Below, piece after piece: positions 17,059 through 35,056 of a stretch of 39,354 nucleotides of DNA (position 1 is its first letter; the number at the start of each line of letters is the position of its first letter). The notes under the pieces are model-generated. The model worked only from the letters and a program-made list of their open reading frames with translations, had not been told where the DNA came from and ran no database searches. A program made the position numbers and the translations under genes. Source of the stretch: an uncultured Candidatus Saccharibacteria bacterium (GTDB lineage: Bacteria > Patescibacteriota > WWE3 > 2-01-FULL-39-13); the NCBI GenBank assembly GCA_965230915.1, contig OZ246395.1, forward strand, positions 298,181 through 337,534, written 5' to 3'.

Positions 17059-17060
17059 AA

Positions 17061-18553: not shown

Positions 18554-18632
18554 AAAATTCCTTTTATTCATGGGCTTTTTTAAATGTATGCCCTTTTTTC
18601 ACAACCCTCAAAAGACCCTATAGTATTGACAC

Positions 18633-19514: not shown

Positions 19515-19598
19515 GATGTGGTTGTGTGATCCTATTGATATTGCCGCGTTACAAAGTTTGAATTGAAGTCATAAGTATATAGTTAAAATTATTTAAAT

Positions 19599-20300
19599 AT
19601 GGAATCGAATAATTTCGAACCAGAAGTAACACAAGAACAGGCCCCGATGGTACGTAATACCATTTCAAGAAGAAGATTTTTGGGTCTTCTAGGAGGAGGA
19701 GCAGCAGCCACAATCCTAAGCGCGAGTGTAAATGTAAATGCTGCAAAAAAAGATGTGCCAGATATTTCAGCTGTGGCTGTATCAGAAATGCAGGCTGAAA
19801 TGCTTACAATAGCCGATGCTATCTATTCAGCATCAGGAAATACTTGGATGACAGTTCCAAGTGAAACAGTAGTTGAAGTTACCGGCGGTATGGATGCACA
19901 AACATCCGAAACAGTTAGCCGTGCTTTATCTCATTTATTATCAATCGCAGAACGCGATGGCGGAGAATCAGCTTTTGCTATTAAAGAAAATTTACTAGCG
20001 CTAGGCGGTCATCTTGGTATCGGTTTTATTAATGTCGGAAGCATAGTTGAGCCTAGAAGCGACATTTCAGGCTATGAAGGCGACGGTGAAGTTATTTATG
20101 AGAATTCGCATTTTGGTGGAATTACTATCCATGCAAATTCTGAATCTAGTCTTCATATTACAGTTCCATCTAAAGATGGTCCTGTTCCACAAATTAAGAA
20201 TGGAATGAATATAACAACCGCAGCTGTAATGGCTATGGAATTTGGAAGATACGGAAACGATGCAGCTCAAATTGCAGAAGGATATTTAGGAAATATTTAA
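19599..20300 (+). CDS. Hypothetical exported protein with twin-arginine (Tat) signal
   Basis: TISRRRFLGLLGGGAAATILSASVNVNA/A shows the S-R-R-x-F-L consensus, a mildly hydrophobic h-region and an AxA-like site. Confidence 0.6.
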   Translation: MESNNFEPEVTQEQAPMVRNTISRRRFLGLLGGGAAATILSASVNVNAAKKDVPDISAVAVSEMQAEMLTIADAIYSASGNTWMTVPSETVVEVTGGMDAQTSETVSRALSHLLSIAERDGGESAFAIKENLLALGGHLGIGFINVGSIVEPRSDISGYEGDGEVIYENSHFGGITIHANSESSLHITVPSKDGPVPQIKNGMNITTAAVMAMEFGRYGNDAAQIAEGYLGNI

Positions 20301-20329
20301 GTTCCTATTTTCGATCTATTCTAAAAAAG

Positions 20330-20353
20330 GCAGGGTAAATTCCCTGCTTTTTT
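20330..20353 (+). terminator. Rho-independent terminator (A-tract upstream, so possibly bidirectional)
   Basis: aaaaaag GCAGGG taaatt CCCTGC TTTTTT, read at 20330..20353. Confidence 0.7.
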
Positions 20354-20380
20354 AGTATTTGTTTGGCGCTTGTTAAAACA

Positions 20381-20408
20381 TTGTATCTATACCTCATAAT
20401 GTTATACT
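20381..20408 (+). promoter_or_regulatory. Candidate promoter of giant gene 1: TTGTAT - 16 nt - TATACT, with the -10 ending 7 nt before the ATG
   Basis: TTGTAT at 20381..20386, TATACT at 20403..20408, ATG at 20416. Only a T-tract plus 'a' lies in between, with no SD. Confidence 0.4.
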
Positions 20409-20415
20409 TTTTTTA

Positions 20416-23400
20416 ATGCCGTTACGTGGTTTTATAAAGATATTCTCACTTAAGATTTTTATTCCTCTATCAGTTTTATTTATTGCCGTCACATTAATTG
20501 GGTTGATTAATCCTAAATCCGCTTTCGCTGATTTTGTTTTACGCGGTGGCACTTGTTATTTCAGATATGGAAATACCAGCGGTCAGACTCAGGAATTGCC
20601 TGTTGATATAAATTTTTGTACAGGAGGCCAGGGTAATGGAGCTTGTATGGCTAATCTTGCCGGGGAATGTAGGGCTGCAAATGTCCCTGGGGGTGGTGGT
20701 AGTGGATGTACTACCGAAGATATTATTACAGAATATACTCCTGCCGGACAAACGCCACAATATATAAGGTTTCAAGCTGATTGTTCGGCTACATGGTCAA
20801 ACGGAATAAATTCGCAAGACTATGGCTTAAATATTGCCTATTTCAGAACTTCTGACAGGAAATATACCGATCTTACATCTAGCAGATCAGCTCTAGGTAT
20901 GCAACAAAACAATTCTGCATTTAAAATAGCAAACGGTAATTCCGGGGTTACTATTCCGATGAGTTGGTTTTCAGGTGAAATGGCAGATTACACCACCGAA
21001 AAAAGTATTGGCTTCTATCCAAATTGTGCCGGAAGCATGGACGATGCTATGGAGGCAGACTGCTTTCGTATAGAAGATCTTGAGCCGTATATTCCCCCAC
21101 CGCCACCCCCATGTACAATGCCGCTCGAACAGGTTTCATTTACAACTTCATGTACACCAGGTGCTTATTCTAGTGGGGTACAAAAGACGACTGATGTGGT
21201 CCATGCTTTAAACCTAAATCAAGGTGGTAATTACTGTCAGATTGACTATATTAATGTGTCGACTGTTCAGAACCCGTCATTCCCTAACTACTACAATTCG
21301 GCCGTTAATGGAGTTTCTGAAAAAGCTATACCCCAAGGATTTACATACCGGGGTGATGGGTCTAATTTAATCTTGCAGCCTAATACTACTTATTGGATTT
21401 CGTATTATGATTCGCAGTCCGGACAACTTTCTGCAGGAAGGTCATTTGTAACTAGAGGGTCTTGTTCAACTCCATCTGCGCCAACAATATCACAGGTTCC
21501 ACAATGTAGATTTACTTTTCCGTACGATACTGAACCGGAAAGAGACAGAATTAATTTAAAGTGGGGAGCTCCATCTAACCAAGGTCTTGGTTTTGAGGGT
21601 TACGAAATTCAGATTGCAAATAATTCTGCTTTTACGGGTGCACAAATGTATTCAAATACTGCAACCGATCGCGATATTCCATTTGGTGCTCCTGCATATT
21701 CAAGTAATATTCCTCTTGGTTATACATACTATTATCGAGTACGCGGAGTTAACTGGGGTGGATCAGGGTCATGGTCCGCTGTGAGATCTGGCTATATACA
21801 AATGAAGCCTTCTTCTCTTAATTCTCTTACTTTGGGAGTAACTCCTCCACCTACCCCTACAGGTAATGCTGTTGTTGATATCGATTGGACATATACAAAT
21901 ACTGTTATTGCTCCGCCTGATCCAGTAAGCGGTGGATTTTTTGGAACAAGAACCGGCGGATCATCAGGAATGCAAAACCTTATAGCCCAAGGAACACAAA
22001 GAACGCTAATAAATAATATTCCAGCTTCGGCATGCCAAGACACAAATTACACATATACATTAAGTGCAAGTAATGTCTGTGGTGATGGGCCAGCTACATC
22101 AAGAAGTGTTGTATGTCCGAGAAATACTCCTCCTACCTGTGGAGCGCTTCAATATTTAAATGGATCAAGTTGGCAAAATTTCCATGGAAGTGGTGTAACC
22201 AGAAACAGATCGACGACTATTCAAATCAGAAGGCTTTGTACAGATCCTGAGGGAAATCCTATTACATATTCATGGGTTACATCTTGTGGATCGGTTTCAC
22301 CTTCCAATACTGCAACTACAACCTATACATTCCCGTCAACAGCCAATACAAGTTGTGACATTCTATCCGGGGCTAGAGATAATTTTAATGCATATGCTCC
22401 ATCTGAAGCAGGAATTGCAAATACTAACCCGACAGCCGGAATATCATCATTAACTTTAGCTCCAGACTCTAGAAGCATTCAAAGGTCAAGCACGGCCGAT
22501 GCTTATGCCGTTATTCGTAGAATCACACAAAATCTTGCAACAATGAGATACACCGTTAGTGGATATAACAACCCGGCCTTTGTTGGCGCCCCTGCTGGGG
22601 TAAACGCTACTGCCAGTATTACGATAGATACTTTATCTGCAAATGTTGCAACAAATATAGTTAACATTTGTAATCCGACATATGGAACGTGCGGATTCGA
22701 CAATGGCGGTGGAACATCTATGGGAATGAGTGCAACTAATGCAAGCTATCTTATTAATGTAAGTTTTAATGCTACTCAGCTTGCAAATGTAAAAGATGTT
22801 ATGGTCGGTTCGACTGCAACTACTCCAATTAGGTTTGGAATGATTGTTAATTTTAATGCTAGAGGTGCAGATGGAAGTTTAATAAATATAAATAGAAGTG
22901 GCACTCCATCTATAATTAATAACCCTCCCTATTGTGTAAGTGTAAATATAGACCCAAGAAGTCCATTGAGAACTGGAACAACAAATATAACAGTAACTGC
23001 TCGTGATGACTGGGGGTTAAACCAGATAAACGTAGGTGTAAGCCCGGCTGGTGGAAGTTTAACTTCAACAGATGTAAATACGATTACAGGAAACCCACGA
23101 TCTGGATCGACAACTGTTCCATGGAACATAACTAATGCGGCTACTGGTGTTTATTCGCTTAATGCGACTATCACAGATTTAGATGGAAGATCCGCGACAT
23201 GTAATGCATCAAGTGCTGTTACTGGCAGTGAAAACCCCGGTGGTGGAACTGGAACACCTCCGACAATTATGGTAGATAAGGTTGTTCCTGTTTGTACCCC
23301 AGGAAGTTTTACTGTGACTAGTGTTGATGGAGTTAATTTGGCATTTGCTGTTAGAGGAAGCGATCCGGGTACAGTTGCTAGTGGATTAGCAGCGATTGAT

Positions 23401-25875
23401 ATATCAGTTTTAAGGCCAGGTACAGGACAAACATGGCAGCCTGCCGGATCGAGCGCTGTAATTAATCCTCCTGTTACAACATATAACTATTCTGATGCAA
23501 CTGGTTACAATGTTGCGAATGCTCCATCTGGAACTTATAACTTTAGAGCAACATGGACTGATGAAGCTGGTAATACTGCTACTTGTGCCGCAACATATGA
23601 TAAAGGTAGTCGGATTTCGGGAAGAATAATGCTTAATACAGGGACTAATGGTGATCAATTGAGAGATTACGCAAACGAATCTACCGGAACAAGGTTTAAT
23701 CCAGTAAGTCGACTTGGTGTTGCCGCCCCTACTTCAGCTAATTGGAACATAGCAACTAATACAAATTGTTCGGCCCCCTACCCCGGGACATCTGCTGCTG
23801 CAAGTGATACCGGTGCATGTAATGCTTGGTTTATATCTAATGCAGAATATGCCACAAGCTCAACTCCAACTATTGGAATTAGATTCCCTGCATTAAGCAG
23901 CAATGCTACTATTCCAAAATATCGTTGTACGGCAATGAGATTATTTAACACTGTAGTCTCGTCATCGACTCCTACTAAGACATTTACAGGGGCTACTGTT
24001 GTTCCGATTAATTGCGTTGGTGGTGTCTGTGGGTGTGATGTTACCTTGGCATCTGGAGATATTACTGTGAATAGTAATGCAACCTATACCGCTACTAGCA
24101 TTTGGCCGACTCATGTTGAATTTGATCTCGATTACAACTCAGATCAGGTGTATGGAACAATTCGAAACGAAAGAGGTTCAGCTATTCAAAACGTTACTGT
24201 AACGGCTGGTGGTGTAACACCTGCAGGTACTTCTAATGCATCTGGAAGCTATGAGACGCCTATTCCTGCTGGCGATAATTCGGCCGGATATTTAAGATCG
24301 GGATTAAGCGGATCCCCTGTATCAACCACAGTTACTTTAACTAATAATGACCCGACTAAATTATGTATTCATGCGGTAAAGACTGATTTCACAAATAATG
24401 CGTCAAGAAATACTGTCGGTAATTTTGATTCTGCTGCAGAAGTTAGTTCGATTGCAAAAACCTTATCAGTTCCGGGCACCGGTTGGTCGGTTGCCGCAGA
24501 TGATGCATGTACAGCAACCGTTCAAGTTGCAAATGGAACTATGTCTCCTAAATACCAGAATCAAGTCAATTACTTATTAATTCCAAAAGTTAAAGTTACA
24601 GGCCGTATTTATTTCTTAAATAAAGATAATCTATGCGGAAGTCCAGCTGCGTGGTCAGATTCTGCTAATCAGGCAAGTAGTGGAAGCGTTCCACTTACTC
24701 TTACAATGCAAACAGATACGGGATTGACCGACTTCTATAACCCCGATGGTGATAGTAGTTACAATACGGGTGATAGTTATACTTACTATGCAAATATACT
24801 TCCAGGCAGTACATGGAATACATGGCAGTTGCAAAAGACTGTAAGCTTTGCAGCTGGATCTCCATATACATCATGCGGTAATGACACTATAAATGTAGCT
24901 ACTTCCCTTCCTAACTATCCATACGATAGTTCTAATCCTACACGTGGATACGAAATTAGTTCTGATATAGCAGTTTATGTACGCGAAGCTAACGACTGGT
25001 GGCAGACATATAATGGTGGTGTTCACGGTTTAGCCGGAATACAAAATGCAATTCCGAACGAAAGCCTTCCTGTTGAAGTAGGCGGATTTGATATGCATAC
25101 AATGGTTGGAGTGCCGAATAATGTGATTTACTCTGCCGCATCTTCCCCTTCCCTAATCAAAAATGGCTTTAGACCAAGTACGTCGGGTGCACTTGTTACC
25201 ACCCGTGGAAATATTGGTACTATAAACGCAGGAAGAAGCGGCGCAAATTGGCAAATATCGGGTGATAAAGCTTGGAAACAAGATAGTATGCCCGCGCTTA
25301 GAATCCCGTTTGCCGGTGAAGGTGCCAGCTCAGTTGAGGCAATTGATAAAGTACGTGCGTTAACTTCTGGCAATTGGCCAACAAGCATGCCAAATTTCTC
25401 AACGAGCGGAAGCAATAATAAAGTAATCCTAAGCGGCAATCAGACTATTGGGTCTTCAAGTTCGGATACAACTTATGGAAATAACAACTATATATTAGTA
25501 GATGGAGACGTAACGATAGCCGGAAATCTTAAACCAAGCGGCACTAATCTTGATCAAACACTCTTTATTGTTGCAAGCGGAGATGTGACCATAGCTGCTG
25601 GAGTTGCCGAAATAAATGCGTTTATTTACACTCCAGGTGATATTAATATTGCTACTGCAGGTCAAGATAGCTCATCCGAAAAAGTACTAAGAGTCTATGG
25701 GGGCTTATATGCAGGTGGAACAATCCACCAAAGAAGAGATATTGAAAACACACCTACAAACTTTGGTTATCCATCAGTACAAGTTATGTTTAACCCAGGT
25801 TTAATTATAAGTACAAGAAGCGCATCCTTCCCTAGCCAATTAAAAGACACTAATGTGTACTGGACACAAGAGTAG
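20416..25875 (+). CDS. Giant secreted modular surface/adhesin-like protein, paralogue 1 (1819 aa)
   Basis: Sec signal ...LINPKSAFA/DF. Modules in order: a Cys-rich head; a PPPPPPC hinge; FN3-like YEIQIANNSAF...YYYRVRGVNWGGSGSWS; PKD-like DPEGNPITYSWVTSCGSVSPSN; Ig-like TNITVTARDDWGLNQINVGVSP and ATWTDEAGNTATC; SGRIMLNTGTNGD and VTGRIYFLNKDNLCG units; and a C-terminal beta-helix-like NNYILVDGDVTIAGN...FIVASGDVTIAAG...AFIYTPGDINIATAG...YGGLYAGGTI. No antisense ORF in this span is credible. Confidence 0.9.
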   Translation: MPLRGFIKIFSLKIFIPLSVLFIAVTLIGLINPKSAFADFVLRGGTCYFRYGNTSGQTQELPVDINFCTGGQGNGACMANLAGECRAANVPGGGGSGCTTEDIITEYTPAGQTPQYIRFQADCSATWSNGINSQDYGLNIAYFRTSDRKYTDLTSSRSALGMQQNNSAFKIANGNSGVTIPMSWFSGEMADYTTEKSIGFYPNCAGSMDDAMEADCFRIEDLEPYIPPPPPPCTMPLEQVSFTTSCTPGAYSSGVQKTTDVVHALNLNQGGNYCQIDYINVSTVQNPSFPNYYNSAVNGVSEKAIPQGFTYRGDGSNLILQPNTTYWISYYDSQSGQLSAGRSFVTRGSCSTPSAPTISQVPQCRFTFPYDTEPERDRINLKWGAPSNQGLGFEGYEIQIANNSAFTGAQMYSNTATDRDIPFGAPAYSSNIPLGYTYYYRVRGVNWGGSGSWSAVRSGYIQMKPSSLNSLTLGVTPPPTPTGNAVVDIDWTYTNTVIAPPDPVSGGFFGTRTGGSSGMQNLIAQGTQRTLINNIPASACQDTNYTYTLSASNVCGDGPATSRSVVCPRNTPPTCGALQYLNGSSWQNFHGSGVTRNRSTTIQIRRLCTDPEGNPITYSWVTSCGSVSPSNTATTTYTFPSTANTSCDILSGARDNFNAYAPSEAGIANTNPTAGISSLTLAPDSRSIQRSSTADAYAVIRRITQNLATMRYTVSGYNNPAFVGAPAGVNATASITIDTLSANVATNIVNICNPTYGTCGFDNGGGTSMGMSATNASYLINVSFNATQLANVKDVMVGSTATTPIRFGMIVNFNARGADGSLININRSGTPSIINNPPYCVSVNIDPRSPLRTGTTNITVTARDDWGLNQINVGVSPAGGSLTSTDVNTITGNPRSGSTTVPWNITNAATGVYSLNATITDLDGRSATCNASSAVTGSENPGGGTGTPPTIMVDKVVPVCTPGSFTVTSVDGVNLAFAVRGSDPGTVASGLAAIDISVLRPGTGQTWQPAGSSAVINPPVTTYNYSDATGYNVANAPSGTYNFRATWTDEAGNTATCAATYDKGSRISGRIMLNTGTNGDQLRDYANESTGTRFNPVSRLGVAAPTSANWNIATNTNCSAPYPGTSAAASDTGACNAWFISNAEYATSSTPTIGIRFPALSSNATIPKYRCTAMRLFNTVVSSSTPTKTFTGATVVPINCVGGVCGCDVTLASGDITVNSNATYTATSIWPTHVEFDLDYNSDQVYGTIRNERGSAIQNVTVTAGGVTPAGTSNASGSYETPIPAGDNSAGYLRSGLSGSPVSTTVTLTNNDPTKLCIHAVKTDFTNNASRNTVGNFDSAAEVSSIAKTLSVPGTGWSVAADDACTATVQVANGTMSPKYQNQVNYLLIPKVKVTGRIYFLNKDNLCGSPAAWSDSANQASSGSVPLTLTMQTDTGLTDFYNPDGDSSYNTGDSYTYYANILPGSTWNTWQLQKTVSFAAGSPYTSCGNDTINVATSLPNYPYDSSNPTRGYEISSDIAVYVREANDWWQTYNGGVHGLAGIQNAIPNESLPVEVGGFDMHTMVGVPNNVIYSAASSPSLIKNGFRPSTSGALVTTRGNIGTINAGRSGANWQISGDKAWKQDSMPALRIPFAGEGASSVEAIDKVRALTSGNWPTSMPNFSTSGSNNKVILSGNQTIGSSSSDTTYGNNNYILVDGDVTIAGNLKPSGTNLDQTLFIVASGDVTIAAGVAEINAFIYTPGDINIATAGQDSSSEKVLRVYGGLYAGGTIHQRRDIENTPTNFGYPSVQVMFNPGLIISTRSASFPSQLKDTNVYWTQE

Positions 25876-25882
25876 TTCGGTA

Positions 25883-25912
25883 TTGAACGAACTTGTCTAA
25901 TAGATATATACT
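25883..25912 (+). promoter_or_regulatory. Candidate promoter of giant gene 2: TTGAAC - 18 nt - TATACT, with the -10 ending 7 nt before the ATG
   Basis: TTGAAC at 25883..25888, TATACT at 25907..25912, ATG at 25920. The TATACT-7-ATG geometry matches paralogue 1. Confidence 0.35.
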
Positions 25913-25919
25913 TCTGTTA

Positions 25920-28900
25920 ATGCCACTACATGGTTCTATAAAGACTTCATTCTCCAGATTTTCCTATATCACTATTTCTGTATTTATAATAGTTTTTTCT
26001 TTGTTTGTTACCCTTAACCCTAAAGCTGCATTAGCCGATTTTGTTTTACGTGGTAGTACATGTTTTTTCAGGTACGGAAATACTAGTGGTCAGACTCAGG
26101 AATTGCCCGTTGATATTAGATTTTGCACAGGCGGAGGTAGCGCGAATGCTTGCCATGACATCGAAGTTGGAGGCGGTGGAGAATGTATTACTGCTAATGT
26201 ACCTGGTAGTTCTGGTACAAACTGCGGTGCACGCGAAATGAGTGTTAGCTATCGTTTTAATAATGGGGATAACAATCCTCCTACTCATATATTATTTGAT
26301 GCTGGCTGTACTGAGACTTGGTCTAGATCAGGTGAAGGGGCAGATGATCTGAATATAGAATATTTTTCTGTTAAAGAAGGTAAATATGAAGGATTGAGAT
26401 TTGATAGTCGTTACGACTCTGACGAATTTAAAATTGATAATGGAAACGACACTGTAACTATCCCGTTATATAAAATGAAAGAAGAGTTACAGGACTACAC
26501 TACCGAAAAAAGATTTATTTTTTACCCAAATTGCGGCGGGCGAGAAGATTCAATGGATGCTGATTGTTATCGTAAAGAAGATTTAGATCCATGGATCCCA
26601 CCCCCACCACCACCTTGCATAATGCCACCTGAAGATATTTCTTATACGACTTCGTGTACTCCTACTTCTTGGCATTTCCCGCCGGAACAGAGAACGACCG
26701 ATGTAATTCGGGCTAGAAATTTAAATCTCGGAGTTGTTAATGGAGTTGATTATTGTAAGGTCGATTATGTTAATGTTTCGCTTGTCCAAAATCCTCCATA
26801 TCCGCAGTATTGGAATTCCGCAACAAATGGTGTGGCCGAAAAGCCTATACCTCAAGGCTTTACATATCGTGGCGACGGATCGAATTTAATTTTACAACCT
26901 GGCCAATCATATTGGATCTCTTATTACCATCTGCCCGACGCAGCATCTCCTAATGGTCAATTGTCTGCAGGTAAATTGTTTACAATGAGAGGGTCATGTC
27001 CTACAGCGGCTGCCCCAACGATTTCGCAACTTCCACAATGTAGGTTTAGCTTTCCATACGATACTGAGCCTGAGAGAGACAAAATATATTTAAGATGGGG
27101 CGATTCTCCAAACCCAGGTCAAGGTTTTGTTGGTTATGAAATTCAAGTAGATGATAATTCGTCGTTTAGCTCTCCGGTATCCTATGCCAAGTATGCTGGT
27201 GACACGAAGGAATTGCCGTTTGGAGCGCCCGCATATAGCACTACTATTCCGATCGGTAGCACACAGTACTATCGTATTAGAGGAGAAAACTGGGGTGGCT
27301 ATGGAGGTTGGTCAACAACAAGATCTTATTTTATGCAGAGAAAACCCGCTCCGGTAGGATCTTTTAATGCAACAGCATATCCAAAAAGTGGAACTGCAAC
27401 AAATGCGACCGCAAATATAACGTGGTCTTATCCGAATGACCCGGTATATGCTGTTAACACAACAAGTAGCGGATTTATATTAAGAAGAGCAGGAGGTCCA
27501 GGCGCAAATATAGCTCGGGGGATTAGCTATACAGCTAGAAGTTATACTGATACATCTTTGTTAACTTGTAATAATACAGACTACACTTATTCAATTAATG
27601 GTGTAAATAATTGTGGAACTGGCAATCTTGTATCTGATACTACAAACTGTCCTGCAAACAGGCCACCTACCTGCACTATTCAATATTTAAATGGAACAAG
27701 CTGGCAGAACTTCCCTGCTGGGGGTGTGACCAGAGATAAATCAACGACAATGCAGGTTAGAAATTCTTGTTCGGATCCTGAAGGCAATCCAATTACATAT
27801 TCATGGACAACTACTTGTGGATCTGTTTCACCTTCTAATGCAGCGACTACAACATATAGGTTCCCTGGTACTGCTGGTGTAAGTTGCGATATTAGATCAG
27901 TTGCAACAGATAGCCTTAATGCATCTGCACAACCAGTAACTGGAAGAGCAAATACCAACCCGACCGCCGGTATAACTTCATTAACCTTAGCACCAGACTC
28001 TAGAAGCATTCAAAGATCCAGCACGGCAGATGCATATGCAGTTATTAGTGGGGTCACACAAAACCTTGCAACGATGAAATATACAGTTACTGGATATAGC
28101 AATCCTTCATCTTTTGGAGCTCCTGCTGGCTCAAATAGAACAGCAACTATTTCTATTGATACGACTGCAACCACAGTTGCTACAAATATAACTAATATTT
28201 GTAACCCAACTTATGGAACTTGTGCGTTTGCAAACGGTGGTGGAACATCACTCGGAACAAGCGCAACAAATAGCAGTCAGATTATTAATGTGAGCTTTAA
28301 TGCAGCACAGCTTGCCAGAGTAAAAGATGTGATGGTTGGCTCTACAGCCACAAGCCCTATCAGATTTGGAATAAGGGTTAATTTTAATGCAACAGGATTA
28401 GACGGGGCGACAATTAATCAGAGCAGAACCGGAAGCCCAACAATAATAAATAATGCTCCATATTGTTCGAGTATTGGCATAAGTCCAGCTAGCCCATTAA
28501 GAACTGGAACAACAAATATAACTGTAACTGCTCGTGATGACTGGGGATTAAATCAAATAAATGTTGGAGTTAGCCCTGCTGCAGGAAGTCTCACTTCTAC
28601 TGACATAAATACTATTACTGGAAATCCAAGATTAGGTGCTACTACTGTTCCATGGAACGTAACCAATGCCCCACACGGAACTTACCAGCTTAATGCAACA
28701 ATTACAGATTTAGATGGAAGATCTGTCGCGTGTAATGCCTCAAGTACAGTTACCGGTAGTAATAATCCTGGTGGTGGAACTGGAACACCTCCAACAATAG
28801 TAGTCGATAAAGTTTCACCTACTTGTACCCCTGGAAGTTTCATTATAACCGCGAACGCGGCCAGAACCAGATTAGGATTCAGCGTATCGGCATCAGATCC

Positions 28901-31439
28901 TGGAAATCCATCTACTGGTCTCTCTAATATTGTTATCGATGTGCAAAAACCAGGAACCACAACCTGGCAGGCAACCGGACTAACCCGTACAATAAATCCT
29001 GCTGTTACTCCATATACATATTCTGTAAATAACATTGATGGTGACGCAGATGGAAATGCGTATAACATCGATGCGAATCCGGCAGGCCTTTATACATTTA
29101 GAGCGACCTGGACAGATAAAGCTGGAAATCCAACCAGTTGTACACAGACATATGATAAAGGTAGTCGAATTTCAGGAAGGATTTTCTTGAATACTGGGTC
29201 AAATGGCGATCAACGAAGAGACTATTCAAGTGAAAGCACCGGAACAGCATTTAACCCAATAAGCCGTCTTAATGGAGGTCCGATAGTTTCTGCAAATTGG
29301 AATATTACAAACAATACAAACTGTTCGGCACCATACCCGGGAACTGCTGCGGCAGGAAGTGATACAGGATTATGCGATGCGAAATTTATTACAAATGTAG
29401 AATATGCGTCTACTTCCAGGCCAACACTTGGTATTAGATTTCCTGCCCTATCATCAGATGGAACAGCTGGAAAATATCGATGTATAAGCATGAGGCTATT
29501 TAATACTGTAAATTCATCAACAACGCCTGTAAAAACTTTTACCGGACCTGGAATCACAAATGTTGCTTGTTCAGGTGGTGTTTGTGGTTGTGATGTAACT
29601 CTAGATCCAAACCAAGTCTTTATAAATAGTTCTGCAACTTATACAACTACAAGTACTTGGCCAACACATGTCGAGTTTGATTTAGCATATAATTCTGACC
29701 AAATTTACGGCCAGGTTAGAAACGAATCTGCATCTATGGTTTCCGGTAATACTGTAAAAGTTGGGAATTTAGCTGCAGCTACTGTGGCTTCTGGAAATTA
29801 TGCCTCACCTGCCCCTACTCCAGATAATTCAGCTGCTTACACTAAATCTGGCACTTCCCCGACAAATACAACTGTTGCACTAAATAACTCCGACCAAACA
29901 AAGCTTTGTATGTATGCTGCAAAACGTGATTTTGCAAATCCAACTGCAAATACAGCAAGGCTAAATACTGCAACCAATTTTGATTCACCAACAAAAATTG
30001 CAAATATAGCCAGAAACTTATCTGTACCTTCAGGTAGTGGTTGGACAGTAGGAGTCGCTGCCGAAAATGATTCTCATAATTTGTGTAGCGTAAATGTTGA
30101 GGTAGCTAATGGAGTTATGACTCCAAAATATCAGAATCAAGTTAACTTCTTCTTATTACCAAAAGTTACAGTTACTGGCCGAATCTATTATTTAAATAAG
30201 GATAATTTATGTGGTAATCCAGATACTTGGGATGACGCTGCAAATCAGGCGACTGGTACGATTCCAGTTACTATTTCTATGTCGACATCTGGAACAAGTA
30301 ATAATAATTTCTATAATCCTGATGGAGATGCTAACTATAACTCCGGGGAAACTTATACTTTCTATGCGAATGCACTTCCTGGCAATACTTGGAATACATG
30401 GAATCTTCAGAGAAGCGTAGGCTTTGGCTCGAGCACAGTGTATACATCATGTGGAAATGGAACTATTAATGTAAATAGTAATATTCCAAATTATCCGTCA
30501 GGTGGTTCTGTTATAACATCGGATATTGCAGTATATGTGCGTGAGGCAAACGATTGGTGGCAGACGTACAATGGTGGAGTTCATGGTTTGACAGGTATAC
30601 AAGACGCTATTCCAAATGAAAGTCTTCCAGTTGAAGTAGGCGGATTTGATATGCACACGCTTATTGGAGTACCTAACAATTCAATTTACACAACAGCTTC
30701 GTCTCCGGCTTTAATTAAAAATGGATTCACCCCTTCTACCTCAGGGGCTTTAGTAACAACAAAGGGTTCTCTAAGCGGAATAAATGCGGGAAGAAATGGC
30801 TCAAACTGGCAGATTTCTTCCGATAAAGCTTGGAAACAAGACAGCATGCCTGCACTTAAAATTCCATTTGCAGATAGCTCTTCGAGCACAACAGTTGATG
30901 CAATAAACAAAGTAAAAGCTTTGTCGGGCTCATCAGCTTGGTCAACAAGCACGCCTAATTTCTCAACCAAGTCATCTAATAATAAGATCGTTCTAACCGG
31001 AAACCAAACAATTGGTTCTTCTTCGTCAGATATAACCATAGGTAACAACAACTATATCTTGGTCGATGGAAACGTGAACATAAACGGAAATATTAAGCCA
31101 AGCGGGAACAACTTAGATCAAACAGTCTTTATTATCGCCAGAGGTGACGTGACAATCGCTGGAAATGTTACAGATTTAAACGCGTTTATTTATACGCCCG
31201 GTGACATTAATATCCAGACAGCAGGCCAAGATAGTTCAAATGAGAAGATCTTAAAGGTTTACGGAGGTTTATATGCAGGTGGAACAATTCATCAAAGAAG
31301 AGATATCGAAAATACTCCAACCAATTTTGGTTATCCATCAGCACAAATTATGTTTAATCCTGCCCTAATTATAAGTACACGTGGAGCTTCCTTCCCTAGC
31401 CAGCTGAAAGACACCAACGTATATTGGACGCAACAATAA
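25920..31439 (+). CDS. Giant secreted modular surface/adhesin-like protein, paralogue 2 (1839 aa from ATG 25920)
   Basis: Colinear with paralogue 1 from MPLHGSIKT (vs MPLRGFIKI) to NVYWTQQ (vs NVYWTQE). The start was moved from the track's 25893 to the in-frame ATG 25920, which aligns with the paralogue's start and its ttaATGcc context. Confidence 0.9.
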   Translation: MPLHGSIKTSFSRFSYITISVFIIVFSLFVTLNPKAALADFVLRGSTCFFRYGNTSGQTQELPVDIRFCTGGGSANACHDIEVGGGGECITANVPGSSGTNCGAREMSVSYRFNNGDNNPPTHILFDAGCTETWSRSGEGADDLNIEYFSVKEGKYEGLRFDSRYDSDEFKIDNGNDTVTIPLYKMKEELQDYTTEKRFIFYPNCGGREDSMDADCYRKEDLDPWIPPPPPPCIMPPEDISYTTSCTPTSWHFPPEQRTTDVIRARNLNLGVVNGVDYCKVDYVNVSLVQNPPYPQYWNSATNGVAEKPIPQGFTYRGDGSNLILQPGQSYWISYYHLPDAASPNGQLSAGKLFTMRGSCPTAAAPTISQLPQCRFSFPYDTEPERDKIYLRWGDSPNPGQGFVGYEIQVDDNSSFSSPVSYAKYAGDTKELPFGAPAYSTTIPIGSTQYYRIRGENWGGYGGWSTTRSYFMQRKPAPVGSFNATAYPKSGTATNATANITWSYPNDPVYAVNTTSSGFILRRAGGPGANIARGISYTARSYTDTSLLTCNNTDYTYSINGVNNCGTGNLVSDTTNCPANRPPTCTIQYLNGTSWQNFPAGGVTRDKSTTMQVRNSCSDPEGNPITYSWTTTCGSVSPSNAATTTYRFPGTAGVSCDIRSVATDSLNASAQPVTGRANTNPTAGITSLTLAPDSRSIQRSSTADAYAVISGVTQNLATMKYTVTGYSNPSSFGAPAGSNRTATISIDTTATTVATNITNICNPTYGTCAFANGGGTSLGTSATNSSQIINVSFNAAQLARVKDVMVGSTATSPIRFGIRVNFNATGLDGATINQSRTGSPTIINNAPYCSSIGISPASPLRTGTTNITVTARDDWGLNQINVGVSPAAGSLTSTDINTITGNPRLGATTVPWNVTNAPHGTYQLNATITDLDGRSVACNASSTVTGSNNPGGGTGTPPTIVVDKVSPTCTPGSFIITANAARTRLGFSVSASDPGNPSTGLSNIVIDVQKPGTTTWQATGLTRTINPAVTPYTYSVNNIDGDADGNAYNIDANPAGLYTFRATWTDKAGNPTSCTQTYDKGSRISGRIFLNTGSNGDQRRDYSSESTGTAFNPISRLNGGPIVSANWNITNNTNCSAPYPGTAAAGSDTGLCDAKFITNVEYASTSRPTLGIRFPALSSDGTAGKYRCISMRLFNTVNSSTTPVKTFTGPGITNVACSGGVCGCDVTLDPNQVFINSSATYTTTSTWPTHVEFDLAYNSDQIYGQVRNESASMVSGNTVKVGNLAAATVASGNYASPAPTPDNSAAYTKSGTSPTNTTVALNNSDQTKLCMYAAKRDFANPTANTARLNTATNFDSPTKIANIARNLSVPSGSGWTVGVAAENDSHNLCSVNVEVANGVMTPKYQNQVNFFLLPKVTVTGRIYYLNKDNLCGNPDTWDDAANQATGTIPVTISMSTSGTSNNNFYNPDGDANYNSGETYTFYANALPGNTWNTWNLQRSVGFGSSTVYTSCGNGTINVNSNIPNYPSGGSVITSDIAVYVREANDWWQTYNGGVHGLTGIQDAIPNESLPVEVGGFDMHTLIGVPNNSIYTTASSPALIKNGFTPSTSGALVTTKGSLSGINAGRNGSNWQISSDKAWKQDSMPALKIPFADSSSSTTVDAINKVKALSGSSAWSTSTPNFSTKSSNNKIVLTGNQTIGSSSSDITIGNNNYILVDGNVNINGNIKPSGNNLDQTVFIIARGDVTIAGNVTDLNAFIYTPGDINIQTAGQDSSNEKILKVYGGLYAGGTIHQRRDIENTPTNFGYPSAQIMFNPALIISTRGASFPSQLKDTNVYWTQQ

Positions 31440-31573: not shown

Positions 31574-31954
31574 TTATGCTTTCTTCGATAGAGCTGCCAT
31601 GATTTCCTGCTTTAGTTGATCAGGGTTCATTGTGTCTTTAATGATATAGCCATCGGCTCCGAGTTCGAAACCTTGTTTTATGACTTTATCGTTATTTAGC
31701 ATTGTCGCGAGATAGATTTTTGTATTTGCATATTGATCGTTAGCGCGGATTTCCTCTAATACTTTTAAACCGTCTTTTTTAGGAAGTAATATATCTAACA
31801 GAATTAGGTCAATATTGGGATTATTAGCTACCATAGTCATTGCTTGTTCGCCATCTTCAGCTTCTAGTACCTCGAAGCCCTGCATTTTTAAATATTCAGC
31901 GTAAACGGTTCTAAGTGATGCTTCGTCTTCTACAAGTAGTAATTTATAAGCCAT
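31574..31954 (-). CDS. Single-domain (receiver-only, CheY-like) response regulator
   Basis: 126 aa. LLVEDEASLR, phospho-acceptor context DLILLDILLPKKDG, and LGADGYIIK. There is no output domain. Confidence 0.85.
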   Translation of the reverse strand: MAYKLLLVEDEASLRTVYAEYLKMQGFEVLEAEDGEQAMTMVANNPNIDLILLDILLPKKDGLKVLEEIRANDQYANTKIYLATMLNNDKVIKQGFELGADGYIIKDTMNPDQLKQEIMAALSKKA

Positions 31955-31998
31955 AAAACCAAGATAGCAGAAATTTTATAGTAATGTAAAGGGCGGGG

Positions 31999-33303
31999 TT
32001 ATTTAATTATTGCAATTGCCCCCGACGCCGATTCTTGTTGTGTGGTAGTGAGCTTAGGCTGTGGCGGGAGTGGTGATTTAACAGGAACGGTAAACCAAAA
32101 TGATGAACCTTTTCCTAATTCTGAGTTAAAGCCGATTCTTCCCCCCATTTGTATTGTAAATTGTTTTGAAATATACAAGCCGAGACCGGTGCTGCCCTCA
32201 GAAGTTTTAATTTTAAGACCTTCTTCGGCTCTTCCGAACTTTGTAAAGATTTTTGGATAGTCGCGCTTAGGAATTCCAGGACCTTCATCTTGAACAGTTA
32301 CTTTATAAAATTGATCTGTGTCAGGTTCGATCTTTATATAGATGTTTCCTTTTGGAGTGTACTTTATTGCGTTGCTAATAAAGTTCTCGAGAATTTCCTG
32401 ATATTTTGCTGGGTCAACCTCGACATAAGCATCAATATTATCCGGCTTATGAAGAGTAAGCCCTTTCTTCTTTGCGTTTTCGGTAAGGGCCTCAACTGAA
32501 GAAATTGTTAGTGTATAAATATGAACTTTTTGAATTTCAAAGGTTAACCTACCCTGCTGGATTCTTGATACATTTAATAAATTATTCACAATACTTTGAA
32601 GTCGGTTTAATCCGTAATCCATTTCGTTCATGAATTTTAAGTCGCGCTGAGAATATTTCTTTTTTGTAGTGTTTTCTAGCATCCACAGGTTGTTTTTTAC
32701 CACGGATATTGGAGTTTTTAGTTCATGTGATGCAATCGAAATAAATTCATCTTTCTGTTTATCTAATTCGATTTCATGTGTGATGTTTGATAATACGATA
32801 ACAGCTTCCTTTTTATCGTTTTTGAAATCGACATAAGTGCTTTTTAAATTAAAATACATACGATCTAACTCGTTTTCTTCTGCATTTTCCCCATCTTCAA
32901 TTACAATACTTACGTGTTCTACTATTTTTATTTCATCTTTAAATGCATATTCTTTTGCACTTAAAGGTGAGGTTGTAATACCTCTGTAAATTTTTACAAC
33001 TTCGTCGATATCTTTCCCTATTGCTTCTTTATGGCTTGTATTGAAAACTTGTTCGGCGCTTAGATTGAATAGTGTGATTTTAAAGTCCTGATCAATAGCG
33101 ATGATAATTTCAGCAATCTGAACAAGAATTTCGTTTAGTCTAGTTTCTTCCCGATATAACTGTAGGTTTTTCGTGTAGAGTTCTTCGGCAACATTGTGTA
33201 AGAGTTTAGATGCATCATTGGCGTTGCCTTGCATTAGGCTGCTTATTGAAGAGTTTGAATCTTGGGAGGAATTTTGATTTTGTCCTTGGGAGTTTTCTGC
33301 CAT
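31999..33303 (-). CDS. Soluble sensor histidine kinase with PAS-like sensor region
   Basis: 434 aa with no TM segment. H-box ISIASHELKTPIS, N-box ENFISNAIKYTPKG, G1 VQDEGPGIP, G2 GSTGLGLYISK. It lies 44 nt upstream of the receiver gene on the same strand. Confidence 0.85.
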   Translation of the reverse strand: MAENSQGQNQNSSQDSNSSISSLMQGNANDASKLLHNVAEELYTKNLQLYREETRLNEILVQIAEIIIAIDQDFKITLFNLSAEQVFNTSHKEAIGKDIDEVVKIYRGITTSPLSAKEYAFKDEIKIVEHVSIVIEDGENAEENELDRMYFNLKSTYVDFKNDKKEAVIVLSNITHEIELDKQKDEFISIASHELKTPISVVKNNLWMLENTTKKKYSQRDLKFMNEMDYGLNRLQSIVNNLLNVSRIQQGRLTFEIQKVHIYTLTISSVEALTENAKKKGLTLHKPDNIDAYVEVDPAKYQEILENFISNAIKYTPKGNIYIKIEPDTDQFYKVTVQDEGPGIPKRDYPKIFTKFGRAEEGLKIKTSEGSTGLGLYISKQFTIQMGGRIGFNSELGKGSSFWFTVPVKSPLPPQPKLTTTQQESASGAIAIIK

Positions 33304-35053: not shown

Positions 35054-35056
35054 GAC

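What the first reader, a model, noticed from the sequence alone, without database searches (positions are those of the whole stretch)
20416..31439. Two head-to-tail ~1,830-aa secreted modular paralogues placed where a pilus-associated adhesin (PilY1 analogue) would be expected
ORFs 20416..25875 (1819 aa) and 25920..31439 (1839 aa) occupy 11,024 nt, 28% of the window.

Targeting signals: both begin with a Sec-type signal (NPKSAFA/DF and NPKAALA/DF), not a prepilin motif. Neither has an LPXTG or lipobox signal.

Shared module order:
- Cys-rich head: ADFVLRGxTCxFRYGNTSGQTQELPVDIxFCTGG.
- PPPPPPC hinge.
- FN3-like units.
- A PKD/cadherin-like DPEGNPITYSW unit.
- Ig-like units: TNITVTARDDWGLNQINVGVSPA and TWTDxAGNxTxC.
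- Two SdrD-B/CarboxypepD_reg-like GRIxxLN units.
- A near-identical C-terminal beta-helix-like domain: REANDWWQTYNGGVHGL...NNYILVDG...AFIYTPGDINI...YGGLYAGGTIHQRRDIENTPTNFGYPS.

Context: they follow a FimT/PilV/PilW/PilX-like minor-pilin set that has no PilY1-type gene. In canonical fimU-pilVWXY1E operons the large non-pilin adhesin sits exactly there.

I recognise the individual folds by motif, but I do not recognise the full-length architecture as a named family. A pilus-tip or contact-dependent host-attachment role is an inference.
Basis: partly seen in the sequence, partly recalled or inferred. Interest (0 to 1): 0.85.

Follow-up and report, generated by a model that had tools for sequence, protein, structure and literature searches.

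The report
Giant candidate pilus-tip adhesins, CPR bacterium
Two neighbouring genes in an ultra-small (CPR/Patescibacteria) bacterium encode huge secreted surface proteins of an undescribed family; their conserved tail module probably plugs them onto the tip of the cell's type IV pilus, so that their variable heads can grip a host cell.

Summary
ORF A (20416..25875, 1819 aa) and ORF B (25920..31439, 1839 aa) are 63% identical paralogues under purifying selection. Both have Sec-type signals and no prepilin, LPXTG or lipobox signal.

No Pfam, NCBIfam or PDB family claims them. Only three full-length relatives turned up among 5.8 billion proteins. All lie in the same locus type: pilB/holB/pilin/pilD/pilins, then an H-I-J-K-like minor-pilin set, then the giant(s), then a response regulator and histidine kinase.

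The last ~300 aa define a wider undescribed family: 125 clusters, with the domain always at the extreme C-terminus of Sec-signal, Cys-rich-head proteins. The domain holds an NxWWQVYNGGVH motif, a three-faced beta-solenoid and a fixed terminal peptide (..NVYWTQE-COOH). The solenoid's best structural neighbours, all non-significant, are the Thermus tip pilin ComZ and ice-binding proteins.

My best reading (about 0.5): these are functional analogues, not homologues, of PilY1/PilC/MshQ. In this reading the solenoid and terminal strand dock in trans onto the PilX/GspK-like minor pilin. The docking is inferred, not shown.

Three findings count against it. A conserved terminator separates the giants from the pilin operon. 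Three ORFs intervene. Some smaller family members lie away from pilin genes.

The parts
20416..25875 (+). Giant A, 1819 aa (P0001)
   Evidence: ORF and translation. 63% identical to B. 70% identical orthologue P0002 in L001. Under purifying selection.
20416..20529 (+). Giant A Sec-type signal peptide (residues 1-38, predicted cleavage AFA|DF)
   Evidence: Read directly from the sequence: basic n-region, hydrophobic core, AxA site. No prepilin motif or lipobox. P33 and A38 are invariant in the five-sequence alignment. Cleavage is predicted, not tested.
20530..21114 (+). Giant A Cys-rich variable head ending in the IPPPPPPC hinge (residues 39-233)
   Evidence: Cysteines at 47, 68, 77, 85, 98, 123, 204, 216 and 233. 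One of the two most divergent stretches between A and B: windows of 32-57% identity, as low as residues 433-582 at 35-36%. In the B lineage it has the highest nonsynonymous divergence, pN 0.35-0.41.
24955..25872 (+). Giant A conserved C-terminal domain (residues 1514-1819)
   Evidence: Profile match 1514-1819. 80% identical to B and the lowest pN. Defines a 125-cluster family in which the domain is always C-terminal.
25342..25824 (+). Three-faced beta-solenoid within the A C-domain (about residues 1643-1803)
   Evidence: AF2 with the 17-sequence alignment: pLDDT 80-96 over most of this stretch, falling to 67-76 at its C-terminal end, with three short strands per rung. Weak DUF7305 and FapA beta-solenoid HMM hits. 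Foldseek top hits are ComZ and ice-binding proteins, all non-significant.
25843..25872 (+). Giant A terminal peptide LKDTNVYWTQE-COOH (last ~10 aa), candidate trans beta-strand
   Evidence: Near-invariant in the 5 full-length homologues. In 20 diverse members an aromatic-W (or aromatic-Y) dipeptide sits at a fixed distance of 3-4 residues from the C-terminus. AF2 leaves it unplaced, pLDDT <50.
25920..31439 (+). Giant B, 1839 aa (P0003); signal peptide residues 1-39 (ALA|DF)
   Evidence: 57% identical orthologue P0004 in L001.
30513..31436 (+). Giant B conserved C-terminal domain including the terminal peptide LKDTNVYWTQQ
15122..15685 (+). Minor pilin, GspH/FimU-like position
   Evidence: N_methyl hit and weak GspH/prepilin hits. 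Orthologues in L001, L002 and L088.
15758..16351 (+). Minor pilin, PilV/GspI-like (G|QSIVE)
   Evidence: Weak full-length type_IV_pilV hit, E=0.018. Orthologues in L001, L002 and L088.
16345..17058 (+). Minor pilin, PilW/GspJ-like
   Evidence: TIGR02532 above its cutoff; N_methyl hit. Orthologues in three loci.
17001..17906 (+). PilX/GspK-like minor pilin without Glu5 (likely start 17061); proposed acceptor of the giants' terminal strand
   Evidence: Assigned by position, size and a hydrophobic N-terminus SGQATIVLIVV lacking Glu5. The L088 orthologue (38% identical) weakly matches PilX_N over the whole profile. It is the best conserved of the four minor pilins across loci. The acceptor role is inferred.
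17927..20300 (+). Three accessory ORFs between the minor pilins and the giants: 17927..18553 (TM plus cupredoxin-like), 18633..19514, and 19599..20300 (Tat-like signal)
   Evidence: The first two are conserved in L001 and L002, the third only in L001, and none in L088.
20324..20353 (+). Terminator-like hairpin upstream of giant A
   Evidence: 12-bp stem followed by a T-run. Conserved in L001. A promoter-like site lies at 20373..20400.
31574..33303 (-). Receiver-only response regulator (31574..31954) and cytoplasmic histidine kinase (31999..33303), convergent with the giants
   Evidence: Translations. Pfam calls for the orthologues. Orthologues sit immediately downstream of the giant(s) in all seven loci.
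4872..15113 (.). Type IV pilus machinery and pilins: pilC 4872..6080(-), pilT 6084..7172(-), pilB 7213..9042(-), holB 9096..9830(+), pilin 9947..10411, pilD 10599..11432, pilins 11504..12073 and 12091..12621, LamG pilin 12629..14488, pilin 14526..15113
   Evidence: Pfam hits.

Best explanation
A and B are paralogous, Sec-exported, ~190-kDa fibrillar adhesins of a Patescibacteria (CPR) bacterium. I propose that they act as non-homologous functional analogues of PilY1/PilC/MshQ.

Proposed mechanism:
1. After export and signal cleavage, the conserved C-terminal module associates with the pilus-tip initiation complex. The module is a ComZ/ice-binding-protein-like three-faced beta-solenoid followed by the terminal peptide ..NVYWTQE-COOH.
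2. The last ~10 residues complete the beta-sheet of the PilX/GspK-like minor pilin (17001..17906) in trans.
3. The solenoid sits on top as the 'tip plug'.
4. The long Ig/FN3-like stalk projects the variable Cys-rich N-terminal head towards the host cell surface.
5. The two paralogues, with conserved tails and diverged heads, give alternative binding specificities, as PilC1/PilC2 do in Neisseria.

Shown here: the genes are real and constrained; the signal is Sec-type; the C-domain family and its solenoid fold exist; the terminal peptide is conserved; the position next to the H-I-J-K minor-pilin set is conserved; no other tip adhesin is present.

Inferred: docking onto the K-like pilin, tip location, and adhesin function.
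For: 1. Locus. The window holds a complete T4P gene set with four minor-pilin-like genes and no PilY1/PilC-like gene.

2. Synteny. The giant follows the orthologous minor-pilin set in the window, L001, L002 and the distant L088, that is 4 of 4 loci with a visible upstream side. L084, L085 and L087 share the same downstream regulator-kinase pair.

3. Constraint. The C-terminal ~306 aa is among the most constrained parts: 80% identity between A and B against 63% overall, with the lowest pN, while synonymous sites are saturated. The head is one of two fast-evolving regions, with residues ~430-590. This fits a conserved dock plus a variable binder.

4. Family. An exhaustive HMM search finds 125 clusters with the domain always at the very C-terminus of Sec-signal proteins of 120-2700 aa. 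Most end in a fixed terminal peptide, [YF]Wxxx[DE] or WxE[VI]xP.

5. Structure. AF2 (pTM 0.76) gives a confident solenoid but leaves the conserved last 8 residues unplaced, as expected for a strand that pairs in trans.

6. Structural neighbours. Foldseek's best PDB neighbours are ComZ (three chains) and ice-binding proteins. The ComZ paper reports an ice-binding protein as the closest relative of ComZ's own solenoid (PMC6561018).

7. Precedent, in cis. ComZ and cyanobacterial PilX carry such a solenoid between the penultimate and last strand of a GspK-type tip pilin.

8. Precedent, in trans. PilC/PilY1 supply that last strand in trans from their final ~10 residues. MshQ is predicted to do the same, and MshQ is a large protein encoded just after the pilIJK homologues (PMC13533445).

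9. The K-like pilin is the best conserved of the four minor pilins across loci.
Against: - No complex modelling or experiment links the giants to any pilin.
- All Foldseek matches are non-significant (E >= 0.3). The DUF7305 hit is below Pfam's cutoff, 19.3 against 27 bits.
- A strong, conserved terminator-like hairpin and a promoter-like site precede giant A. In L088 an opposite-strand ORF separates the K-like pilin from the giant. The giants are therefore probably not co-transcribed with the minor pilins.
- Three accessory ORFs intervene in the window.
- The 740-aa family members in L089 and L091 have no pilin genes within 8 kb. L090 has only pilMNO-like genes about 3-6 kb upstream.
- All syntenic loci come from one CPR clade that also conserves the downstream regulator and kinase. 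Part of the synteny could therefore be inherited gene order rather than functional coupling.
Confidence: 0.5

Rival explanations
1. Pilus-independent surface fibrils. The giants are cell-envelope-anchored adhesins or a fibrous coat. The conserved C-terminal solenoid and terminal peptide bind the wall or S-layer, or oligomerise at the cell surface. The genes merely neighbour, and may be co-regulated with, the pilus locus because both serve host attachment.
For: The giants appear to be a separate transcription unit. Family members occur away from pilin genes (L089, L091). Many family members are small proteins of 170-300 aa, little more than a signal peptide and the C-domain, which suits a general anchoring module. 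Giant fibrous surface proteins are reported for other CPR such as Vampirococcus (PMC8080830, listed; not read).
Against: No known wall-anchoring signal or module is present: no LPXTG, lipobox or C-terminal TM segment, and no anchoring-domain family in the Pfam or NCBIfam scans. The family is small for a general CPR anchor, 125 clusters among 1.84 billion representatives. Adjacency to the minor-pilin set is kept at 25-38% identity. A fixed free C-terminal peptide is more typical of strand docking than of wall binding.
Confidence: 0.25
2. Reverse orientation. The N-terminal hydrophobic segment is an uncleaved membrane anchor. The conserved C-terminal ice-binding-protein-like solenoid is then the distal ligand-binding domain, as in the giant Marinomonas ice-binding adhesin (comparison recalled from my own knowledge, not tested).
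For: The hydrophobic core of the signal is long, about 23 residues. The solenoid's fold neighbours include many ice-binding/DUF3494 adhesive domains.
Against: Canonical AxA cleavage sites, with P and A invariant in the five homologues. The pattern of variation is the opposite of what is expected for a distal ligand-binding tip: the C-domain is most conserved and the N-terminal head among the most variable. The same C-domain ends proteins with many unrelated N-terminal parts.
Confidence: 0.12
3. Self-polymerising subunits. The terminal strand is a donor strand for head-to-tail assembly of a Sec-dependent filament, by analogy with the CPR-specific Pam pili.
For: Pam pilins are CPR-specific, Sec-exported, Ig-like and assemble by donor-strand exchange. 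They occur in Microgenomatia (bioRxiv 10.64898/2026.03.03.709456).
Against: Pam pilins are 38-55 kDa two-domain proteins whose donated strand is an internal linker, and they come with chaperone- and usher-like genes. The Pfam and NCBIfam scans of the window ORFs gave no chaperone- or usher-family hit. The giants are about 190 kDa with a solenoid, not an open Ig-like barrel, at the C-terminus.
Confidence: 0.05

Closest known systems
PilY1 / PilC tip-associated adhesins of type IVa pili (Pseudomonas, Neisseria, Myxococcus, Acinetobacter)
   Same: Large non-pilin proteins with a Sec signal. They are encoded with or near the PilV/W/X (I/J/K) minor pilins, and paralogues with different heads occur (PilC1/PilC2). 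Function depends on the last ~10-12 residues, which add a beta-strand to PilK/PilX (PMC13533445). The giants share the position, the signal type, the paralogy and a strongly conserved free C-terminal peptide.
   Different: No sequence homology. There is no C-terminal beta-propeller (PF05567 gives no hit; AF2 shows a solenoid) and no vWA domain. The giants are nearly twice as long, with an Ig/FN3-like stalk. They belong to a CPR organism with no outer membrane or secretin gene in the window. Docking is untested.
ComZ (Thermus thermophilus) and cyanobacterial PilX: GspK-type tip pilins with an inserted beta-solenoid
   Same: An ice-binding-protein-like triangular beta-solenoid is followed by a final beta-strand and proposed to cap or plug the pilus tip. 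ComZ chains are the top Foldseek PDB hits for the giants' C-domain model.
   Different: In ComZ and PilX the solenoid is inserted in cis in a pilin with an N-terminal pilin helix. Here the solenoid and terminal peptide sit at the end of a separate Sec-exported giant, and the K-like pilin is a separate 281-aa protein. The structural match is not significant (E 0.5-1.7, TM 0.24-0.35) and there is no sequence match.
MshQ of the Vibrio cholerae MSHA pilus
   Same: A large (~1200 aa) non-PilY1 protein encoded immediately downstream of the pilIJK homologues mshDOP. It is predicted to donate its extreme C-terminus to the PilK homologue (PMC13533445).
   Different: Homology was not tested because no MshQ sequence was at hand. 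The phylum differs, and no beta-solenoid C-domain is reported for MshQ.
TM7x (Saccharibacteria) PilX2
   Same: A CPR T4P adhesin candidate with a non-canonical signal, needed for host binding (PMC12206443).
   Different: PilX2 carries its beta-propeller adhesin domain on the minor-pilin-like protein itself, and it is far smaller. Giant proteins with this C-domain are not mentioned in the passages retrieved from that paper.
Pfam DUF7305 (PF23981) and FapA-type beta-solenoids
   Same: Weak HMM similarity over the solenoid rungs. DUF7305: E=0.0012 for A's C-domain and E=0.0029 for P0025. FapA: three of the five full-length homologues (best E=6e-4) and two of 17 diverse C-domains (best E=8e-5).
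   Different: All hits are below the curated cutoffs. They cover only part of the domain and not the NxWWQVYNGGVH motif or the terminal peptide.

Membership tests
PilY1/PilC family | C-terminal PilY1/Neisseria_PilC beta-propeller domain (Pfam PF05567) | tested here: not met
   No Pfam or NCBIfam hit at E<=1. AF2 shows a beta-solenoid, not a propeller.
PilY1/PilC family | Sec signal rather than a prepilin leader, and encoded beside the PilV/W/X-type minor pilins | tested here: met
   AxA signal with no prepilin motif. The giant lies downstream of the H-I-J-K-like set in 4 of 4 loci with visible upstream DNA, though separated by 0-3 ORFs and a terminator.
PilY1/PilC family | The last ~10 residues add a beta-strand to the PilK/PilX sheet | tested here: inconclusive
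   The terminal peptide is strongly conserved at a fixed distance from the C-terminus and is left unplaced by monomer AF2. No multimer prediction was available.
ComZ / cyanobacterial PilX (solenoid-bearing GspK-type tip pilins) | N-terminal pilin helix with a class III leader | tested here: not met
   No prepilin motif in the first 60 residues and no N_methyl hit.
ComZ / cyanobacterial PilX (solenoid-bearing GspK-type tip pilins) | Ice-binding-protein-like triangular beta-solenoid followed by a final strand | tested here: inconclusive
   AF2 gives a solenoid with three strands per rung, pLDDT 80-96 over most of it. ComZ and ice-binding proteins are the top Foldseek hits but with E 0.5-2 and TM <=0.35.
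Pfam DUF7305 (PF23981) | Score at or above the gathering threshold (27 bits) | tested here: not met
   19.3 bits for A's C-domain; one of 17 diverse members matches at E<=1.
Sortase-anchored MSCRAMM/Sdr-type adhesins | C-terminal LPXTG motif, hydrophobic segment and basic tail | tested here: not met
   No LPXTG near the C-terminus and no run of 17 or more hydrophobic/small residues anywhere in either protein. Both proteins end ..NVYWTQE/Q.
T1SS RTX giant adhesins (LapA / ice-binding adhesin type) | No Sec signal, plus C-terminal RTX repeats and a T1SS signal | tested here: not met
   A Sec-type signal is present. No RTX/HemolysinCabind hit.
Autotransporters | C-terminal beta-barrel translocator | tested here: not met
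   No autotransporter Pfam hit. The C-terminus is a solenoid plus a short peptide.
Pam pili of CPR bacteria | 38-55 kDa two-domain Ig-like pilins with an internal donor strand, in an operon with chaperone-like genes | not tested
Size and C-terminal fold differ from the published description.
MshQ | Sequence homology to Vibrio MshQ | not tested
   No MshQ sequence at hand. Only the gene position is comparable.

The most novel reading that the evidence does not exclude
CPR bacteria of this clade have split the tip pilin. The solenoid 'plug' and the licensing beta-strand, which ComZ and PilX carry in cis, have moved onto exchangeable Sec-secreted cargo proteins. The ~300-aa C-domain ending in ..YWxxxE-COOH would then be a general pilus-tip docking tag, carried by at least 125 protein clusters ranging from bare ~170-aa domains to 2700-aa fibrils. 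One retractile pilus could present alternative giant heads (A or B) to find and reel in host cells. Pilus assembly itself might be licensed by whichever cargo is available.
Probability: 0.3. Interest if true: 0.85.

Novelty: new variant of a known kind. Interest (0 to 1): 0.62.

Why it matters
How CPR/Patescibacteria recognise and hold their hosts is largely unknown. Type IV pili are their best conserved surface machine, yet no PilY1-type tip adhesin has been identified outside Saccharibacteria PilX2.

If these giants dock on the pilus tip, three things follow:
- They would be the host-recognition molecules of a Microgenomatia-like lineage.
- They would extend the newly described beta-strand-addition licensing rule for type IV filaments to a monoderm-like, deep-branching phylum, through a non-homologous protein.
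- They would define a recognisable C-terminal tag for finding pilus-tip cargo in metagenomes.

Even if the docking model is wrong, the work delimits an undescribed, CPR-restricted surface-protein family with a diagnostic C-terminal domain.

Tried and rejected
Searches that found nothing useful:
- Pfam, NCBIfam and PDB sequence searches of the full proteins, of the full-length alignment and of both C-domain profiles gave nothing above threshold.
- The search for homologous proteins with the C-domain alignment, and with a single divergent C-domain given as letters, returned nothing, not even the source proteins. I treat this as a tool limitation, not as evidence.
- A scan of GTDB species representatives with the full-length alignment found no relative.
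- An IMG/VR scan found none, so there is no support for a phage tail-fibre origin. BFVD fold search gave no significant hit.
- No paper mentions DUF7305 or PF23981.

Models and readings rejected:
- AF2 with only the 5 close homologues gave an unusable model, pLDDT 45. It was replaced by the 17-sequence model.
- Recent gene conversion as the cause of the C-domain identity is rejected because synonymous sites are saturated.
- Positive selection on the heads could not be assessed because dS is saturated even between orthologues. Only elevated pN can be reported.
- The conserved MPLxG start as a cryptic prepilin leader is rejected. There is no Glu5, and distant family members have ordinary Sec signals.
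- Homology between the Tat-like ORF upstream of giant A and the Tat-like ORFs upstream of the 740-aa family members was not detectable.
- A search for att direct repeats of the element at tRNA-Gln found none within the window.
- An internal-repeat search found only one Ig-like pair.
- The K-like pilin has no PDB sequence relative.
Full report
**1. The observation**

The window (39,354 nt, GC 0.30-0.42) contains two tandem + strand ORFs:
- A: 20416..25875, 1819 aa.
- B: 25920..31439, 1839 aa from the ATG. All homologues begin MPLxG.

They align end to end at 63% identity. Both proteins start with a basic n-region, a hydrophobic core and an AxA site (AFA|DF in A, ALA|DF in B). Neither has a prepilin motif, a lipobox, or a C-terminal LPXTG with a hydrophobic tail.

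The ORFs are real genes. Nonsynonymous divergence (pN 0.10-0.46) is far below synonymous divergence (pS 0.5-0.8) along the whole length. This holds between A and B and between each and its orthologue in another assembly.

Because synonymous sites are saturated, the high identity of the C-terminal domain reflects purifying selection on an old duplication, not recent gene conversion. That domain is about 80% identical in protein against 63% overall.

**2. Organism and locus**

The organism appears to be a deep-branching CPR/Patescibacteria bacterium:
- GyrB (1662..3629, -) has its best match among GTDB species representatives in a Candidatus Woesebacteria MAG, at only 55% identity.
- The source contig is 945 kb.
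- The DNA is low-GC.
- No GTDB species representative encodes a relative of the giants.

The window is a complete type IV pilus locus:
- pilC (4872..6080, -), pilT (6084..7172, -), pilB (7213..9042, -), holB, pilD (10599..11432).
- Five pilins, one of them a 619-aa modular pilin with two Laminin_G_3 domains (12629..14488).

Four minor-pilin-like genes follow, in the canonical H-I-J-K order and sizes:
- 15122..15685: prepilin-type, GspH-like position.
- 15758..16351: G|QSIVE; weak full-length PilV hit.
- 16345..17058: TIGR02532 above its cutoff.
- 17001..17906: likely start 17061; hydrophobic N-terminus without Glu5. Its 38%-identical orthologue in L088 weakly matches the whole PilX_N profile.

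No PilY1/PilC-like, vWA or beta-propeller gene is present.

Between the K-like pilin and giant A lie three accessory ORFs (17927..18553, 18633..19514, 19599..20300). After them come a strong terminator-like hairpin (20324..20353) and a promoter-like site (20373..20400).

Downstream, convergent with the giants, are a receiver-only response regulator and a cytoplasmic histidine kinase (31574..33303, -).

**3. Relatives of the whole proteins**

Among 5.8 billion proteins only five full-length relatives exist: A, B, a tandem pair in an NCBI assembly (P0002/P0004, locus L001), and a single 1987-aa gene in a Logan assembly (P0005, L002). None is named by its source or carries a precomputed Pfam domain.

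Both other loci repeat the window's gene order from pilB to the regulator-kinase pair. L002 has one giant, so the duplication is specific to the window/L001 lineage. It predates the split of those two, because A pairs with P0002 at 70% and B with P0004 at 57%.

Two regions evolve fast:
- the Cys-rich head (residues ~40-240), particularly in the B lineage: 29-44% identity between orthologues, pN 0.35-0.41;
- a segment at ~430-590 (pN hot spot ~420-660 in the A lineage).

The C-terminal domain evolves slowest (pN 0.10-0.13).

**4. Domain content**

No Pfam or NCBIfam model reaches its cutoff. Across the five homologues the recurring sub-threshold hits are:

| Family | Members matching (of 5) | Best E-value |
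|---|---|---|
| fn3 | 2 | 7e-5 |
| CarboxypepD_reg | 2 | 1.2e-3 |
| PKD | 1 | 0.2 |
| FapA beta-solenoid | 3 | 6e-4 |

Profile-profile self-comparison detects one internal repeat. The two Ig-like units carrying TNITVTARDDWGL.. and ..TWTDEAGNTATC (about residues 867-932 and 990-1060) match at 96% probability.

PDB sequence searches with single sequences and with profiles find nothing.

**5. The C-terminal domain defines a wider, undescribed family**

An exhaustive HMMER search of 1.84 billion cluster representatives with the C-domain profile found 125 proteins at E<=1e-3. Of these, 18 were at E<=1e-10.

In every case the match runs to within a few residues of the C-terminus. Host proteins range from 120 to 2710 aa. 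The complete ones begin with an ordinary Sec signal, usually followed at once by a Cys-rich segment.

Members with the full domain share three features:
- an N.WWQ(V/T)YNGG(V/I)H motif;
- a solenoid region;
- a terminal peptide, ..(K/T)E(S/T)(N/K)V-[YF]-W-x-x-x-[DE]-COOH, in which the aromatic-W pair always sits 3-4 residues from the end.

More distant members end in WxE(V/I)xP, NWQWGN, AEYNPRF or DLPPVIN.

AF2 results depended on the alignment:
- With the 5-sequence alignment the model failed (pLDDT 45).
- With the 17-sequence alignment it gave pTM 0.76 and a confident three-strands-per-rung beta-solenoid at domain residues ~130-290, pLDDT 80-96 over most of it.
- The conserved last 8 residues were left unplaced, pLDDT <50.

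Foldseek found no significant match. The top PDB hits are the three chains of the Thermus competence tip pilin ComZ (6qvi; E 0.5-1.7) interleaved with ice-binding proteins. The top viral hit is a DUF3494 protein.

A's C-domain weakly matches Pfam DUF7305: E=0.0012, 19.3 bits against a cutoff of 27.

**6. Genomic context of family members**

A metagenome scan with the diverse alignment returned nine loci, one of which is the L001 contig again. ORF maps and tblastn with the window's proteins show the following.

| Locus | Family member | Upstream | Downstream |
|---|---|---|---|
| L088 (98-kb contig) | 1773 aa, P0014; C-domain 27% identical | pilD, three pilins, orthologous H-, I-, J-, K-like set (29-38% identity), one opposite-strand ORF | orthologous regulator and kinase |
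| L085 | giant >2400 aa, then second member of 806 aa | cut by contig end | same regulator and kinase |
| L087 | giant >2400 aa, then second member of 727 aa | cut by contig end | same regulator and kinase |
| L084 | giant, cut at its 5' end by the contig end | cut by contig end | same regulator and kinase |
| L089, L091 | 740 aa | no pilin genes within 8 kb | no regulator-kinase pair |
| L090 | 740 aa | pilM, pilN and a T2SSM_b-like gene, about 3-6 kb upstream | cut by contig end |

So the giants keep their place after the minor-pilin set in all four loci where that side is visible. Smaller family members can be unlinked, as pilC1/pilC2 are in Neisseria.

The K-like pilin is consistently the best conserved of the four minor pilins. 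Its identities to L001, L002 and L088 are 85%, 63% and 38%. The other three score 73-82%, 51-56% and 29-34%.

**7. Mechanistic reading**

Three published facts frame the anatomy:
- PilC/PilY1 license pilus assembly and are held at the tip because their last ~10-12 residues add the final beta-strand to the sheet of PilK/PilX. T2SS GspK has that strand in cis. The large MshQ, encoded just after the pilIJK homologues, is predicted to do the same as PilC/PilY1 (PMC13533445).
- ComZ of Thermus is a GspK-like tip pilin in which an ice-binding-protein-like triangular solenoid is inserted between the penultimate and last strand (PMC6561018).
- All cyanobacterial PilX homologues have the same insertion, which is proposed to replace PilY1 as the 'tip plug' (bioRxiv 10.64898/2026.02.12.705559).

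The giants' C-terminal module has the same order of parts as the distal half of ComZ/PilX: a solenoid, then a short, invariant, free terminal peptide. Here it sits on a separate Sec-exported protein, encoded downstream of a small K-like pilin that has no such insertion.

I therefore propose a 'split ComZ/PilX' arrangement. The giant supplies the plug and the licensing strand in trans, and it projects a ~1500-residue stalk and a variable Cys-rich head from the pilus tip. I put this at about 0.5.

The steps from 'conserved C-terminal module next to minor pilins' to 'docks on the K-like pilin' are inference.

**8. Evidence against, and rivals**

- The terminator hairpin before giant A is conserved in L001. 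In L088 an opposite-strand ORF intervenes. The giants are therefore probably their own transcription unit.
- All syntenic loci belong to one clade that also conserves the downstream regulator and kinase, so part of the synteny may be inherited.
- Structural similarity to ComZ is not significant.

Rivals:
- Pilus-independent envelope-anchored fibrils, with the C-domain as anchor (0.25).
- Reverse orientation, with an uncleaved N-terminal anchor and the solenoid as the distal binding domain (0.12). The conservation pattern and the AxA sites argue against it.
- Donor-strand self-polymerisation like the CPR Pam pili (0.05). Size, fold and gene context differ.

**9. Comparison and novelty**

The proteins are not members of the PilY1/PilC family (no propeller, no homology). 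They are also not ComZ/PilX-type pilins (no pilin helix), sortase-anchored adhesins, RTX adhesins or autotransporters.

They most likely work like PilY1/PilC/MshQ, so I file them as a new variant of a known kind, built from an undescribed protein family. Literature searches found no description of such giants in CPR. The only CPR tip-adhesin candidate described is TM7x PilX2, which carries its propeller in cis.

Interest is 0.62. The family and its C-terminal tag are new, and the hypothesis is specific and directly testable. The key link is still unproven.

Noticed in passing
window 12629..14488 (+): A 619-aa modular pilin: a class III leader and pilin helix followed by two Laminin_G_3 (concanavalin-like lectin) domains. 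It is present in L001 but absent from L002 and L088. It is a second, independent adhesin candidate in the same pilus locus, reminiscent of the modular pilins of Streptococcus sanguinis.
   Followed up: partly
window 20324..20353 (+); L001 about 9937..9962: A strong terminator-like hairpin (12-bp stem, T-run) lies between ORF 19599..20300 and giant A. It is conserved in L001, where the stem is kept while the loop and a flanking stem position differ. A promoter-like site follows at 20373..20400. The giants are therefore probably transcribed separately from the minor-pilin genes.
   Followed up: partly
window 33525..37591; L002 17849..19661; L084 4481..4554: tRNA-Gln(CTG) follows the histidine kinase in the window, L002 and L084. 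In the window its 3' end is overlapped by a 495-aa serine recombinase gene (33566..35053, -) that heads a low-GC (~0.30) block of unknown genes. L002 has a recombinase-type gene at the same spot and L084 has none. This looks like an integration hot spot carrying a mobile element. No att repeat of 18 nt or more was found inside the window.
   Followed up: partly
window 31574..33303 (-): A receiver-only response regulator (126 aa) and a histidine kinase with no N-terminal membrane segment lie immediately downstream of the giant(s) in all seven loci. They are convergent with the giant in six loci; in L088 the regulator lies on the giant's strand. Regulator identity across loci is 49-94%. This may be a dedicated regulator of the pilus/adhesin locus; compare FimS-AlgR beside fimU-pilVWXY1E in Pseudomonas.
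   Followed up: partly
window 19599..20300 (+); L090 7641..8348; L089 638..1519; L091 7576..8457: The ORF just upstream of giant A has a Tat-like N-terminus (SRRRFLGLLGG; TIGR01409 15.0 bits against a cutoff of 16.7). The 740-aa C-domain family members in L089-L091 are also preceded by ORFs with RRxF-type N-termini. No sequence homology between these ORFs was detectable, so any link remains open.
   Followed up: partly
window 17927..18553 (+): A 208-aa protein with one N-terminal membrane segment and a C-terminal stretch weakly resembling cupredoxin/amicyanin (E=0.018). It is conserved after the K-like pilin in L001 and L002 but absent in L088.
   Followed up: no
L085 3..10275; L087 1..9486: In two metagenome loci a very large family member (>2400 aa) is followed directly by a much smaller one (806 and 727 aa) with the same Cys-rich start and C-domain. 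Tandem pairs of unequal size therefore also occur.
   Followed up: no
L001 (contig JADMIO011627935.1 of GCA_016307145.1): The closest relative of the whole locus sits on a 47-kb contig of an assembly whose contig numbering runs into the millions. This suggests a CPR sequence inside a very large metagenome or a contaminated eukaryotic assembly.
   Followed up: no
tool behaviour: the search for homologous proteins returned no hits at all for a C-domain alignment and for a C-domain given as letters, not even the source proteins. The exhaustive HMM search found 125 hits with the same profile used. Negative results from that tool with sub-sequence queries should not be trusted.
   Followed up: yes
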